A stretch of DNA of 33,901 nt, from IMG/VR virus record IMGVR_UViG_2671180699_000001, positions 1-33,901 of that record; one strand, written 5' to 3'. The notes beneath the pieces were generated by a model. That model did no database searches, was not told the DNA's origin, and saw nothing but the letters and a program-made list of their open reading frames with translations. The DNA is from a virus. Taxonomy: Duplodnaviria; Heunggongvirae; Uroviricota; Caudoviricetes. The translations under genes and the position numbers were made by a program. This document shows, in pieces, positions 22,182 through 25,661 of the stretch (its first letter is position 1; each line of letters begins with the position of its first letter).

Positions 22182-23689
22182 TGGCAATTCTTGATGATGT
22201 GATTGGCGTTTTTTCACCAGGATGGAAAGCGGCAAGGCTGCGTTCCCGTGCGGTGATCCAGGCTTATGAGGCCGTAAAAACGACGCGGACACACAAAGCC
22301 CGACGGGAGAACCGAACTGCCGACCAGTTAAGCCAGTACGGGGCCGTGTCGTTACGTGAGCAGGCCCGTTACCTTGATAACAACCACGATCTGGTTATTG
22401 GTGTATTTGACAAGCTGGAAGAACGGGTGGTGGGGAAAAACGGGATTATTGTCGAGCCACATCCGGTATTACGCAATGGGGCCATTGCCCGTGACCTGGC
22501 TGCGGAGATTCGCACCCGATGGAGTGAATGGTCTGTCAGCCCGGAAGTCACCGGGCAGTTTACCCGTCCGATGCTGGAACGTCTGATGCTTCGTACCTGG
22601 CTGCGCGATGGTGAGGTGTTTGCCCAGATGGTTTCCGGGCGCATAAACAGCCTGACGCCTTCTGCCGGTGTTCATTTCTGGCTGGAGGCGCTCGAGCCGG
22701 ACTTTATTCCCATGACCAGTGATGAGAGCAACAGGCTGAATCAGGGCGTGTTTGTTGATGACTGGGGGCGTCCCGAAAAATATCTGGTGTATAAAAGCCG
22801 TCCCGTATCCGGACGGCAGATGGAAACCAAAGAAGTGGATGCAGAGCGAATGCTGCATCTTAAATTTGTTCGCCGTCTGCACCAGATGCGCGGGACGTCT
22901 TTATTGTCCGGTGTGCTGATCCGCCTCAGTGCTCTGAAAGAGTATGAAGATTCTGAGCTGACTGCAGCAAGGATCGCCGCTGCTCTGGGGATGTACATCC
23001 GGAAAGGCGACGGGCAGAGCTATGAAGCGGATGGTAATGGCAGCAAGGATAAGGAACGCGAGCTTACCATTCAGCCAGGCATTATTTACGATGATCTGAA
23101 ACCCGGCGAAGAAATCGGAATGGTGAAGTCGGATCGCCCCAATCCTAACCTTGAAACTTTTCGTAATGGTCAGTTGCGTGCCGTGGCGGCGGGCAGTCGT
23201 CTGAGTTTTTCCAGTACAGCGCGCAACTATAACGGCACTTACAGCGCCCAGCGTCAGGAGCTGGTTGAATCCACTGATGGCTACCTGATCCTGCAGGACT
23301 GGTTTATTGGTGCCGTCACCCGTCCGATGTATCGTGCCTGGCTGAAACAGGCTGTGGCATCCGGTGTTATCAGGCTACCCCGCGATCTTGACCGTTCTTC
23401 ACTGTATACCGCGGTGTATTCCGGACCGGTGATGCCGTGGATTGACCCTGTTAAGGAGGCTGAGGCCTGGAAAATCCAGATTCGTGGTGGAGCGGCGACA
23501 GAATCAGACTGGGTACGTGCTGGTGGTCGTAATCCGGATGATGTCAAACGTCGGCGCAAGGCCGAAATTGATGAAAACCGCAAGCTGGATCTGGTATTTG
23601 ATACCGATCCGGCCAGTGATAAAGGAGGCAGCAGTGCCGCAACGAAACGACATGAGCCGCAGCACACCGACGACCAGTCCGAAGAATAA
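22181..23689 (+). CDS. Portal protein (lambda gpB family); likely start at ATG 22181 overlapping W stop
   Basis: About 500-aa protein following terminase and W. Confidence 0.9.
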   Translation: MAILDDVIGVFSPGWKAARLRSRAVIQAYEAVKTTRTHKARRENRTADQLSQYGAVSLREQARYLDNNHDLVIGVFDKLEERVVGKNGIIVEPHPVLRNGAIARDLAAEIRTRWSEWSVSPEVTGQFTRPMLERLMLRTWLRDGEVFAQMVSGRINSLTPSAGVHFWLEALEPDFIPMTSDESNRLNQGVFVDDWGRPEKYLVYKSRPVSGRQMETKEVDAERMLHLKFVRRLHQMRGTSLLSGVLIRLSALKEYEDSELTAARIAAALGMYIRKGDGQSYEADGNGSKDKERELTIQPGIIYDDLKPGEEIGMVKSDRPNPNLETFRNGQLRAVAAGSRLSFSSTARNYNGTYSAQRQELVESTDGYLILQDWFIGAVTRPMYRAWLKQAVASGVIRLPRDLDRSSLYTAVYSGPVMPWIDPVKEAEAWKIQIRGGAATESDWVRAGGRNPDDVKRRRKAEIDENRKLDLVFDTDPASDKGGSSAATKRHEPQHTDDQSEE

Positions 23690-23702
23690 TTCCTGGTTCA
23701 GG

Positions 23703-25661
23703 ATGCAGGCTGGTCACCAGAGTGACGCGGATATTTATATTTATGACGAGATTGGTTTCTGGGGTGTTACAGCGAAGCAGTTTATCAGTGATCTGAATGC
23801 ACTGGGCGATATCACCCACATTAATCTCCATATTAATTCACCGGGTGGCGATGTCTTTGAAGGCATCGCCATTTTTAATGCGCTGAAAACACATGGTGCG
23901 TCCATTACCGTTTATGTCGACGGTGTGGCGGCGTCAATGGCGTCGGTCATTGCGATGGTGGGAAACCCGGTCATTATGCCGGAAAACACCTTCATGATGA
24001 TTCATAAACCATTTGGCTTTACGGGCGGTGATGCGGAGGACATGCGCACCTATGCCGACCTGCTCGATAAAGTTGAGGCGGTTCTGTTACCCGCTTATGC
24101 ACAGAAAACCGGGAAAACCACCGATGAAATTGCTGCCATGCTGGCGGATGAGACCTGGATGTCCGGTGCCGAATGTCTGGCACATGGATTTGCTGATCAG
24201 GTAACGCCAGCCGTTAAGGCAATGGCATGTATTCAGTCAAAACGTACAGAGGAATTTAAAAAGATGCCGGAATCCATTCGAAACATGATTACTCCGCCAC
24301 GCAACAGTGCTCCACGCGTACAGGATAATGAACCTGAAGCCTCCCGGACGCCAGTGCAGGCAGCAGCACCCGTGGTGGATGAAAACAGCATCCGTGCGCA
24401 GGTACTGGCAGAGCAAAAAGCGCGTGTAAACGGTATTAATGATCTGTTTGCCATGTTTGGCGGGCGTTATCAGACGCTGCAGGCTCAGTGTCTTGCCGAT
24501 CCTGAATGTTCGCTGGAGCAGGCCCGCGAAAAGCTGTTGAACGAGATGGGGCGCGAGTCCACGCCATCCAATAAAAATACCCCGGCTCATATTTATGCCG
24601 GTAACGGTAATTTTGTGGGGGACGGGATCCGCCAGGCGCTGATGGCGCGTGCCGGATTTGAAAAAACCGAACGTGATAATGTCTACAACGGGATGACCCT
24701 GCGTGAATATGCCCGTATGTCACTGACTGAACGGGGTATTGGGGTTTCCAGTTATAACCCGATGCAGATGGTCGGTGCGGCGTTCACACACAGTACGTCT
24801 GACTTCGGTAATATTCTGCTGGATGTTGCGAACAAAGCCATTCTGCAGGGCTGGGAAGATGCCCCTGAAACCTATGAACAGTGGACGCGGAAAGGTCAGT
24901 TGTCTGATTTTAAAATTGCCCATCGTGTGGGTATGGGTGGCTTCAGTGCTCTGCGTCAGGTGCGTGAAGGGGCGGAATATAAATACGTCACCACCGGAGA
25001 TAAACAGGCCACTATTGCACTGGCGACCTATGGCGAGCTGTTCAGTATCACCCGTCAGGCCATTATCAATGATGATCTGAATATGCTGACCGATGTCCCG
25101 ATGAAACTGGGCCGTGCGGCGAAATCCACTATTGCCGATCTGGTTTATGCCATTCTGACGTCTAACCCGAAAATCTCCACAGATAATGTAAGTCTGTTCG
25201 ATAAAGCGAAACATGCAAACGTACTGGAGAGCGCTGCAATGGACGTGGCATCGCTGGATAAAGCCCGCCAGTTGATGCGCGTTCAGAAAGAGGGGGAGCG
25301 TCATCTGAATATTCGTCCTGCGTTCGTACTGGTACCGACGGCGATGGAGTCTGTTGCTAACCAGGTCATTCGCTCCTCAAGTGTCAAGGGGGCTGACATT
25401 AACGCCGGTATTATTAACCCGGTGAAAGATTTTGCGACCGTTATTGCAGAGCCTCGTCTTGATGATAACAGCCAGACCACCTTCTACCTGGCTGCGTCAA
25501 AAGGCTCCGATACGATTGAAGTGGCTTATCTCAACGGTGTGGATACGCCATATATTGATCAGATGGAGGGCTTCAGTGTGGATGGCGTGACAACGAAAGT
25601 GCGTATTGACGCCGGTGTCGCGCCAGTTGATCACCGCGGTCTGGTGAAATGTACGGCGTAA
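23703..25661 (+). CDS. Prohead protease (ClpP/S49-like) fused to major capsid protein (HK97 fold); alternative start 23652
   Basis: N-terminal ClpP-like motif INSPGGDVFEGIAIFNALK…ASMASVIAM; C-terminal 400 aa capsid-like; single uninterrupted frame. Confidence 0.85.
   Translation: MQAGHQSDADIYIYDEIGFWGVTAKQFISDLNALGDITHINLHINSPGGDVFEGIAIFNALKTHGASITVYVDGVAASMASVIAMVGNPVIMPENTFMMIHKPFGFTGGDAEDMRTYADLLDKVEAVLLPAYAQKTGKTTDEIAAMLADETWMSGAECLAHGFADQVTPAVKAMACIQSKRTEEFKKMPESIRNMITPPRNSAPRVQDNEPEASRTPVQAAAPVVDENSIRAQVLAEQKARVNGINDLFAMFGGRYQTLQAQCLADPECSLEQAREKLLNEMGRESTPSNKNTPAHIYAGNGNFVGDGIRQALMARAGFEKTERDNVYNGMTLREYARMSLTERGIGVSSYNPMQMVGAAFTHSTSDFGNILLDVANKAILQGWEDAPETYEQWTRKGQLSDFKIAHRVGMGGFSALRQVREGAEYKYVTTGDKQATIALATYGELFSITRQAIINDDLNMLTDVPMKLGRAAKSTIADLVYAILTSNPKISTDNVSLFDKAKHANVLESAAMDVASLDKARQLMRVQKEGERHLNIRPAFVLVPTAMESVANQVIRSSSVKGADINAGIINPVKDFATVIAEPRLDDNSQTTFYLAASKGSDTIEVAYLNGVDTPYIDQMEGFSVDGVTTKVRIDAGVAPVDHRGLVKCTA

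What the first reader, a model, noticed from the sequence alone, without database searches (positions are those of the whole stretch)
23442..25661. Single-ORF fusion of prohead protease and major capsid protein
One uninterrupted frame encodes an N-terminal ClpP/S49-like protease motif (INSPGGDVFEGIAIFNALK) and a C-terminal capsid-like domain, instead of separate C, nu3 and E genes as in lambda. This head module differs from lambda's although the tail module is lambda-like, a clear mosaic joint.
Basis: partly seen in the sequence, partly recalled or inferred. Interest (0 to 1): 0.4.

Follow-up and report, generated by a model that had tools for sequence, protein, structure and literature searches.

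The report
Known fused protease–scaffold–capsid phage gene
One prophage gene really does encode the head-maturation protease, a scaffold segment and the major capsid protein as a single chain. This arrangement is already catalogued, was studied experimentally in Salmonella phage Gifsy-2, and occurs in about 40% of complete E. coli genomes, so it is ordinary.

Summary
An uninterrupted frame (mechanical ORF 23442-25661) carries a ClpP-family protease domain and an HK97-fold capsid domain. The real gene most likely starts at GTG 23634, behind an AAGGAGG ribosome-binding site. It encodes 675 aa, the same length as the RefSeq CDS annotated at this position in E. coli strain 104.

- **Family membership:** it scores 986 bits (cutoff 475) against NCBIfam NF045540, [quoted passage not shown].
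[quoted passage not shown] 2010). It is 57% identical to phage MD8 gp5, which has been described in the same way.
- **Distribution:** it is ≥99% identical to the gene of propagated phages (mEp460, cdtI, Ayreon, Tritos). It is present in 2135 of 5426 complete E. coli genomes.
- **Anatomy:** protease (aa 20-195, invariant Ser101/His124), disordered Pro/Ala-rich hinge (220-247), Nu3-like helical block (249-310), capsid domain (from about 377).
- **Lambda comparison:** broadly right. Z, U and V are 50-54% identical to lambda, whereas head genes are ≤24% or unrelated. The similarity step lies at about 26340-26351, downstream of this gene, and the same head-plus-tail combination is shared with Gifsy-2.

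Verdict: already known, low interest.

The parts
23634..25661 (+). CDS of the tripartite head polyprotein (675 aa, 73.6 kDa): ClpP-like prohead protease, scaffold-like segment and major capsid protein
   Evidence: ORF. Start matches the RefSeq CDS annotated at this position in strain 104 (WP_023281930.1; stretch 100% identical). NF045540 scores 986 bits against a cutoff of 475. phrog_133 matches full length. 70% identity over 669 aa to the Gifsy-2 gene.
23622..23628 (+). Shine-Dalgarno AAGGAGG, 5 nt upstream of the GTG start at 23634
   Evidence: Sequence. SD scan of all in-frame starts. Coordinates verified.
23442..23633 (+). Open but probably untranslated extension of the frame, overlapping the 3' end of the portal gene.
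   Evidence: Sporadic 1-nt deletions anywhere in this stretch create artefactual 1159-aa portal-protease-capsid ORFs in other assemblies.
23691..24218 (+). ClpP-family (S14-like) serine protease domain, aa 20-195. Oxyanion G71-G72 (23844-23849), nucleophile Ser101 (23934-23936), base His124 (24003-24005), and Glu173 (24150-24152) at the ClpP Asp position.
24291..24374 (+). Disordered, hypervariable Pro/Ala-rich hinge (aa 220-247)
   Evidence: AF2 pLDDT is below 50. This is the lowest-conservation, indel-rich zone of the alignments. Composition.
24378..24563 (+). Conserved alpha-helical block (aa 249-310), a scaffold-like segment that aligns with the Nu3 part of lambda gpC
   Evidence: AF2 helices 250-273, 280-288 and 294-307. 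hhalign aligns aa 59-351 with gpC 122-434 at 85% probability, E=6e-6. Weak BLASTP match. No Pfam family.
24564..24761 (+). Transition segment (aa 311-376): a low-confidence loop (311-325) followed by short helices. The maturation cleavage site is expected somewhere here (inferred, not mapped).
   Evidence: AF2. Conservation profile. The Pfam capsid model begins at aa 377.
24762..25658 (+). HK97-fold major capsid protein domain (aa 377-675), Phage_capsid_4 / Mu-gpT type. Spine helix at aa 483-510 (25080-25163).
22181..23689 (+). Portal protein (lambda gpB family), overlapping the fused gene by 56 nt in another frame
   Evidence: PF05136 E=6e-82. 64% identity to the Gifsy-2 portal. 22% identity to lambda gpB. 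Overlap computed.
25748..26071 (+). Head decoration ('cement', DUF2190) protein, partner of the capsid shell
   Evidence: PF09956 E=2e-20. phrog_122 'head decoration'. 61% identity to Gifsy-2 STM1034. No similarity to lambda gpD.
26351..28082 (+). First tail genes with clear lambda similarity (Z-like 26351-26929, U 26926-27327, V 27339-28082). The jump in similarity to lambda begins at the left edge of this block.

Best explanation
Window 23634-25661 encodes a tripartite head-assembly polyprotein of a Gifsy-2/mEp460-type lambdoid prophage.

**Shown here:**
- An N-terminal ClpP-family serine protease (aa 20-195) with conserved oxyanion Gly-Gly, Ser101 and His124.
- A disordered Pro/Ala-rich hinge (aa 220-247).
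- A conserved helical segment collinear with the Nu3 scaffold part of lambda gpC (aa 249-310 and possibly further).
- A C-terminal HK97-fold capsid protein of the Mu-gpT/Phage_capsid_4 type (from about aa 377).

**Inferred from the 70%-identical Gifsy-2 orthologue and from general HK97 and lambda head assembly:**
- Full-length chains assemble on the portal into a T=7 procapsid, with the capsid domains forming the shell and the scaffold and protease parts tethered inside.
- Once concentrated there, the protease removes itself and the scaffold by cleavage somewhere between about aa 308 and 376. This leaves a capsid protein of 32-40 kDa.
- The emptied shell packages DNA, expands, and is stabilised by trimers of the downstream DUF2190 decoration protein (25748-26071).

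Fusion guarantees co-incorporation of protease, scaffold and coat without separate targeting signals.
For: - **Gene integrity:** uninterrupted ORF with a strong SD at the annotated start.
- **Domain models:** Pfam, PHROG and NCBIfam fusion models match far above cutoffs.
- **Active site:** catalytic Ser, catalytic His and oxyanion Gly-Gly are invariant across 54 homologues down to about 35% identity. They align to ClpP's active site.
- **Scaffold segment:** collinear profile match to lambda gpC including its Nu3 part.
- **Orthology:** 70% full-length identity to Gifsy-2, with the flanking portal, decoration and tail genes collinear at 61-68%.
[quoted passage not shown] Gifsy-2 has a trimeric decoration protein at the 3-fold axes, like lambda (PMC8538268). 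MD8 gp5, 57% identical here, is described as protease + scaffold + capsid protein in one gene (PMC8508860).
- **Functionality:** ≥99% identical genes occur in phages propagated on laboratory E. coli strains (Ayreon on K12, phi458 on MC1061, PhiR55_1 on E. coli C).
Against: - No experiment on this exact protein was available, and the Gifsy-2 paper itself could not be read. Processing, T number and the role of the decoration protein are transferred by orthology.
- The cleavage site is not mapped.
- The residue at the ClpP Asp position (Glu173) is invariant among close relatives but not across the wider family. The enzyme may therefore work as a Ser-His dyad.
- If every coat subunit carries a protease, each procapsid would hold about 415 protease and scaffold copies, which is very crowded (my estimate). 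Nothing here shows how this is accommodated.
Confidence: 0.9

Rival explanations
1. The fusion is an artefact: a sequencing or assembly frameshift, or a lost stop codon, has merged two originally separate genes (protease/scaffold and capsid).
For: The window is a draft assembly (10-N contig joins at 15266-15275 and 32601-32610). Indel artefacts do occur at this locus in other assemblies: singleton 1159-aa portal-protease-capsid ORFs arise from scattered 1-nt deletions.
Against: - The 2220-nt stretch is 100% identical to at least 10 complete genomes, and a match covering at least 80% of it is present in 2011 genomes.
- The single-chain architecture is kept in Gifsy-2, Fels-1, Providencia and Pseudomonas phages.
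- Most of the top 150 clusters at 50% identity are full-length at 35-60% identity.
- Curated fusion-specific models exist (NF045540, phrog_133).
Confidence: 0.01
2. The gene is nested, like lambda C/Nu3. Besides the full-length chain, an internal start (for example the invariant Met211-Pro212) yields a scaffold-capsid protein without protease. Only a minority of shell subunits would then carry a protease.
For: - Met211-Pro212 is invariant from E. coli to Pseudomonas MD8 and sits just after the protease domain.
- A weak GAGG lies 11 nt upstream of it.
- A nested product would relieve the crowding problem.
- Lambda and Mu use nested protease/scaffold genes (established knowledge; PMC8508860).
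Against: - The SD is weak and badly spaced, and arises from Glu codons.
- Only P212, not M211, stays ≥90% conserved in the 54-sequence set.
- No annotation or literature retrieved here reports a second product.
Confidence: 0.07
3. The ClpP-like domain is a catalytically dead relic that serves only as extra scaffold or core. Processing is done by a host protease, or there is no processing.
For: - The third triad position is Glu rather than Asp and is not conserved family-wide.
- No biochemical data exist for this protein.
Against: - Gly71-Gly72, Ser101 and His124 are strictly invariant across 54 homologues at 35-96% identity. This is the signature of a working active site.
- The domain scores well above the equivalog-domain cutoff for a ClpP-related head maturation protease (NF045542).
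Confidence: 0.03

Closest known systems
Salmonella phage Gifsy-2 tripartite capsid gene (STM1033 / STM1034.3n; Effantin et al. 2010, Virology 402:355, PMID 20427067)
   Same: Full-length orthologue: 70% identity over 669 aa with the same order of ClpP protease, central segment and capsid protein. The neighbourhood is also the same: TerS, TerL, a small gene, portal, the fused gene, a DUF2190 decoration gene, a small gene, then lambda-like Z, U, V, G, T, H. Portal is 64% identical, decoration 61% and major tail protein 68%.
   Different: Different host and 30% sequence divergence, concentrated in the N-terminal extension and the hinge. Nothing differs in architecture.
NCBIfam NF045540 'ClpP-like prohead protease/major capsid protein fusion protein' (scaf_prot_MCP1) and PHROG phrog_133
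   Same: Matches end to end, far above the curated cutoff (986 bits against 475; phrog_133 positions 3-667 of 668). RefSeq gives this product name to the CDS at the same position in the 100% identical strain 104 stretch.
   Different: Nothing. It is a typical member.
Pseudomonas phage MD8 gp5 / F10 (PMC8508860)
   Same: 57% identity over 97% of the length. The published interpretation is that protease, scaffold and major capsid protein are encoded by one gene, with the scaffold part resembling lambda's.
   Different: Pseudomonas host. The downstream connector and tail genes are arranged differently.
Phage lambda head genes C / Nu3 (nested protease-scaffold), E (coat) and D (decoration)
   Same: The logic is the same: protease plus scaffold inside a portal-nucleated shell, later stabilised by a decoration protein. 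The N-terminal roughly 350 aa are remotely collinear with gpC, including its Nu3 part. TerL and portal belong to the lambda Pfam families.
   Different: The coat here is covalently joined to the protease-scaffold. The protease is ClpP/S14-like rather than S49. The capsid part has no sequence similarity to gpE. The decoration protein has none to gpD.
Phage HK97 gp4 protease and gp5 (delta-domain scaffold fused to the coat protein)
   Same: Scaffold function is fused N-terminally to an HK97-fold coat protein and removed by a phage protease (established knowledge; restated in PMC8508860).
   Different: In HK97 the protease is a separate gene. From general knowledge, it belongs to an unrelated protease family and the capsid is stabilised by chainmail crosslinks. 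No HK97-type protease or capsid Pfam model was among the Pfam hits here. This phage instead carries a decoration protein.
Other protease-capsid fusions: NF045541 (scaf_prot_MCP2), phrog_4523, and Arthrobacter phage clusters AM/AU/AN with Rhodococcus RRH1 (PMC5513430)
   Same: The same idea of protease and major capsid protein in one gene.
   Different: These are different sequence families. NF045541 scores 401 bits, below its 525 cutoff. The actinophage fusions are reported as sharing little or no similarity with each other.

Membership tests
NCBIfam NF045540, ClpP-like prohead protease/major capsid protein fusion protein | Whole-protein HMM score above the curated cutoff (475 bits), with end-to-end coverage | tested here: met
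   985.9 bits, E=1e-296, residues 32-674 on profile positions 2-651 of 652.
NCBIfam NF045540, ClpP-like prohead protease/major capsid protein fusion protein | N-terminal ClpP-related head maturation protease domain with an intact nucleophile and base | tested here: met
NCBIfam NF045540, ClpP-like prohead protease/major capsid protein fusion protein | C-terminal HK97-fold major capsid domain in the same uninterrupted polypeptide | tested here: met
Gifsy-2-type tripartite capsid gene / head module | Full-length orthology and a conserved position between the portal and decoration genes | tested here: met
   70% identity over 669 aa. Gene order is collinear, with portal 64%, decoration 61% and major tail protein 68% identical.
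Gifsy-2-type tripartite capsid gene / head module | Proteolytic release of a mature capsid protein from the precursor, and a T=7 shell decorated by trimers | not testable with these tools
   Known only from the literature on Gifsy-2. The primary paper is not held. Virion proteomics or cryo-EM would be needed.
Lambda-type head module (separate C/Nu3, D, E) | A separate coat gene of the gpE family and an S49 protease gene with a nested scaffold | tested here: not met
   The coat is fused. There is no similarity to gpE or gpD. The S49/SppA model scores 22 bits against a cutoff of 155. Only a remote profile match to gpC exists.
HK97-type head module (separate protease; delta-domain coat; chainmail) | A separate prohead protease gene of the HK97 gp4 type and an HK97-family capsid protein | tested here: not met
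   The Pfam scan at E≤0.01 returned only CLP_protease, SDH_protease, NfeD1b_N, Phage_capsid_4 and Mu-like_gpT. A decoration gene is present.
MEROPS S14 (ClpP) versus S49 (SppA/gpC) protease family | Best-scoring family model and the Ser-His(-Asp) triad arrangement of ClpP | tested here: inconclusive
   ClpP models clearly score best, and Ser and His align with the ClpP triad. However, the Asp position holds Glu173, which is not conserved family-wide. ClpP equivalog cutoffs are not reached, as expected for a phage paralogue.

The most novel reading that the evidence does not exclude
The fused gene may also be a nested gene. A conserved internal initiation, with the invariant Met211 just after the protease domain as candidate, would supply protease-free scaffold-coat chains. 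The protease-to-coat ratio would then be set translationally rather than fixed at 1:1. This would solve the problem of packing about 415 protease domains into a T=7 procapsid.
Probability: 0.07. Interest if true: 0.35.

Novelty: already known. Interest (0 to 1): 0.08.

Why it matters
It adds little as a discovery. The architecture has its own curated NCBIfam and PHROG families, an experimental study (Gifsy-2) and a published bioinformatic description (MD8).

Its practical value is for annotation. The same gene is labelled in at least eight different ways in deposited phage records: "head-tail preconnector protease C", "Nu3", "putative protease", "protease/scaffold", "head maturation protease", "Major head protein", even "terminase protein". 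Many mEp460-, cdtI- and Stx-type phage genomes therefore appear to lack a major capsid gene.

The family is also very common, in about 40% of complete E. coli genomes. Its maturation cleavage site and protease stoichiometry could not be established from anything retrieved here (the primary Gifsy-2 paper was not held), which makes it a convenient system for studying self-processing capsid polyproteins.

Tried and rejected
1. **Programmed frameshift joining portal to the fused gene.** This was suggested by about 14 singleton 1159-aa portal+ClpP+capsid proteins. Rejected: the frame switches are scattered over 23443-23650, as expected from sporadic 1-nt deletions.
2. **Internal translation starts.** Only a weak GAGG lies 11 nt before Met211. 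Other SD-like hits fall inside the capsid domain. Kept only as a low-probability rival.
3. **Prophage truncated in tail gene L and joined to a chromosomal alpha-amylase-family gene**. Rejected: the junction is a 10-N contig spacer.
4. **Genes on the opposite strand.** Antisense ORFs of 117-194 aa have no family hits.
5. **A Pfam family for the middle segment.** None was found.
6. **Reading Effantin et al. 2010.** The paper is not held, and a further literature search for processing details found nothing.
7. **Python analysis of lambda, Gifsy-2 and MD8 loci.** It failed because phage-collection loci are not exported to the sandbox. Pairwise tools were used instead.
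Full report
**1. Observation**

The + strand frame from 23442 to 25661 is open for 739 codons. It contains no N and no stop. Pfam places a Clp protease domain on ORF residues 95-255 (E=3e-36) and a Phage_capsid_4 domain on residues 441-736 (E=2e-54), with a weaker Mu-like gpT match.

The 5' 192 nt are only open frame overlapping the end of the portal gene (22181-23689, another frame). The sole start codon with a strong ribosome-binding site is GTG 23634, with AAGGAGG 5 nt upstream. RefSeq uses this start for the CDS in a 100% identical stretch of E. coli strain 104. The gene is therefore 23634-25661, giving 675 aa and 73.6 kDa. Numbering below refers to this protein.

**2. 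What it is**

NCBIfam NF045540, [quoted passage not shown], matches end to end at 986 bits against a curated cutoff of 475. The domain model NF045542 (head maturation protease, ClpP-related) scores 216 bits against a cutoff of 120. PHROG phrog_133 matches over 665 of its 668 positions.

- **In E. coli genomes:** the DNA is found in 2135 of 5426 complete genomes. It is mostly ≥99% identical, and the listed RefSeq records carry exactly that product name.
- **In propagated phages:** it is ≥99% identical in mEp460, cdtI, Ayreon, Tritos, phi458 and others. It is about 78% identical in Stx-converting phages.
- **At protein level:** full-length relatives include Stx/VT1-Sakai-type phages (about 76%), mEp213/LLS (73%), Fels-1 (72%), Gifsy-2 (70%), a Providencia phage (63%) and Pseudomonas phages MD8/F10 (57%).
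- **In the representative library:** a search of 1.84 billion cluster representatives gave 7017 hits at E≤1e-30. Most of the best 150 clusters are proteins of 640-740 aa matched in one stretch across residues about 20-672 at 35-60% identity.

The fused architecture is therefore old and widespread. It cannot be a frameshift artefact.

**3. Anatomy**

Alignments of 13 and 54 homologues and an AlphaFold2 model built on the 54-sequence alignment (mean pLDDT 83) give a consistent map.

- **aa 1-19:** variable and disordered.
- **Active site:** Gly71-Gly72 (oxyanion "SPGG"), Ser101 and His124 are invariant in all 54 sequences. They align with ClpP's nucleophile and base. The ClpP Asp position holds Glu173, which is invariant among close relatives but not family-wide.
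- **aa 196-255:** the least conserved, indel-rich zone. Residues 220-247 are a disordered Pro/Ala-rich hinge.
- **aa 249-310:** three conserved helices.
- **aa 311-325:** a low-confidence loop, followed by short helices up to about 376.
- **Nearest solved capsid protein by sequence:** the Mu-gpT-type protein of phage JBD30 (8rkc, E=3e-4).

A profile comparison aligns aa 59-351 collinearly with lambda gpC residues 122-434. That range covers both gpC's protease and its Nu3 scaffold portion (85% probability, E=6e-6). No similarity to gpE is detectable. The gene thus reads as a gpC/Nu3-like protease-scaffold joined to a Mu-gpT-type coat protein.

**4. Mechanism**

Shown here are the intact gene, the three-part layout, purifying selection on the protease active site, and orthology to Gifsy-2. 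The assembly pathway is transferred from the literature. [quoted passage not shown] 2010 (PMC12315714). [quoted passage not shown] The MD8 paper argues that protease, scaffold and major capsid protein are encoded by one gene (PMC8508860).

I infer the following sequence of events:
- Full-length chains assemble on the portal into a procapsid with the protease and scaffold parts inside.
- The protease excises itself and the scaffold, cutting somewhere between about aa 308 and 376. This leaves a coat protein of 32-40 kDa (masses).
- The shell expands on DNA packaging.
- The downstream DUF2190 "cement" protein (25748-26071) decorates it. This protein matches PF09956 and phrog_122, is 61% identical to the Gifsy-2 homologue, and is unrelated in sequence to gpD.

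My recollection of the Gifsy-2 abstract is a T=7 capsid modelled with HK97 gp5 and lambda gpD. This is from memory, because the paper is not held.

**5. The lambda comparison and the claimed mosaic joint**

BLASTP identities to lambda:

| Window gene | Lambda gene | Result |
|---|---|---|
| TerL | gpA | 24% |
| Portal | gpB | 22% |
| Fused gene | gpC | marginal, E=0.02 |
| Fused gene | gpE | none |
| Decoration protein | gpD | none |
| 91-aa gene (26064-26339) | FII | none |
| U | U | 54% |
| V | V | 54% |
| H | H | 25%, E=1e-48 |

However, the step in similarity lies at about 26340-26351, two genes downstream of the finding. Head and tail genes are also equally diverged from Gifsy-2 (61-70%), which has the same gene order with lambda Z/U/V/G/T/H homologues. 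The same description, head unlike lambda and like Gifsy-2 with a lambda-like tail, has been published for phage LLS/mEp213. This is an established lineage, not a new recombinant.

**6. Rivals**

- **Artefactual fusion:** excluded by conservation.
- **Dead protease domain:** unlikely, given the invariant Ser, His and Gly-Gly.
- **Nested internal start at the conserved Met211:** this would ease the crowding of about 415 protease copies per procapsid. It has only a weak, poorly spaced GAGG in its favour. Only Pro212, not Met211, remains ≥90% conserved in the broader alignment. I keep it at about 7%.

**7. Context and caveats**

The window is not one contiguous piece. Ten-N spacers at 15266-15275 and 32601-32610 join three contigs. 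The fused gene lies well inside the middle contig.

- **Left contig:** carries ybhC, then the integrase and early region of a lambdoid prophage.
- **Right contig:** a chromosomal alpha-amylase-family gene.

An apparent truncation of the prophage in tail gene L is therefore an assembly boundary.

**8. Verdict**

The feature is a typical member of a curated and experimentally studied family, so it is already known and of low interest (0.08). The remaining open points are the cleavage site, the stoichiometry and a possible nested product. They are family-wide questions that need proteomics and mutagenesis, not further sequence analysis.

Noticed in passing
window 15266-15275 and 32601-32610: Two runs of exactly 10 N show that the window is three contigs concatenated. 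Piece 1 (1-15265) holds ybhC plus the integrase and early genes of a lambdoid prophage. Piece 2 (15276-32600) runs from the lysis genes to tail gene L. Piece 3 (32611-33901) is a chromosomal alpha-amylase-family gene. Linkage across these joins should not be assumed.
   Followed up: yes
window 23442-23689 (portal / fused-gene overlap): About 14 singleton database proteins of 1158-1159 aa (others of 1080 and 1135 aa) carry portal + ClpP + capsid domains in one chain. A 1-nt deletion anywhere in this stretch produces exactly 1159 aa. The frame-switch points are scattered over 23443-23650, so these are sporadic indels (assembly errors or prophage decay), not programmed frameshifting.
   Followed up: yes
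window 24264-24269 (Met211-Pro212 of the fused protein): Met-Pro immediately after the protease domain is invariant from E. coli to Pseudomonas phage MD8. A weak GAGG lies 11 nt upstream. An internal initiation site is possible but poorly supported.
   Followed up: partly
Phage records matched by window 23442-25661: The same gene carries very inconsistent product names across GenBank phage records: protease C, Nu3, protease/scaffold, head maturation protease, Major head protein, major capsid protein, terminase protein. Many of these genomes therefore appear to lack a major capsid gene.
   Followed up: no
AP000400.1 (phage VT1-Sakai) 23248-26576, hits H21/H97: The orthologous fused gene of the Stx1 phage VT1-Sakai is split by an IS629 insertion, matching in two pieces with transposase genes between them. 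That prophage's head gene is therefore inactivated.
   Followed up: no
window 26064-26339: A 91-aa gene lies between the decoration gene and the Z-like gene. PGAP calls it "DNA breaking-rejoining protein" and PHROG calls it "minor tail protein" (phrog_153). It has no similarity to lambda FII. Its position suggests a head-completion or connector role, and the last lambda-unlike gene ends here.
   Followed up: partly
window 15812-19180: The lysis and moron region upstream of the terminase genes matches the strain 104 prophage at only 90-93% (lysozyme rrrQ, rzpQ, cspI and ynfQ-type genes in that record). The head and tail genes match at 97%. This indicates a different recombination history for the two blocks.
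   Followed up: no
protein list (P0019, P0068, P0076, P0077, P0084, P0086): Other chimeric database proteins join parts of this gene to TerL, tail protein L or J-like domains. They look like deletion fusions in decaying prophages or misassemblies.
   Followed up: no
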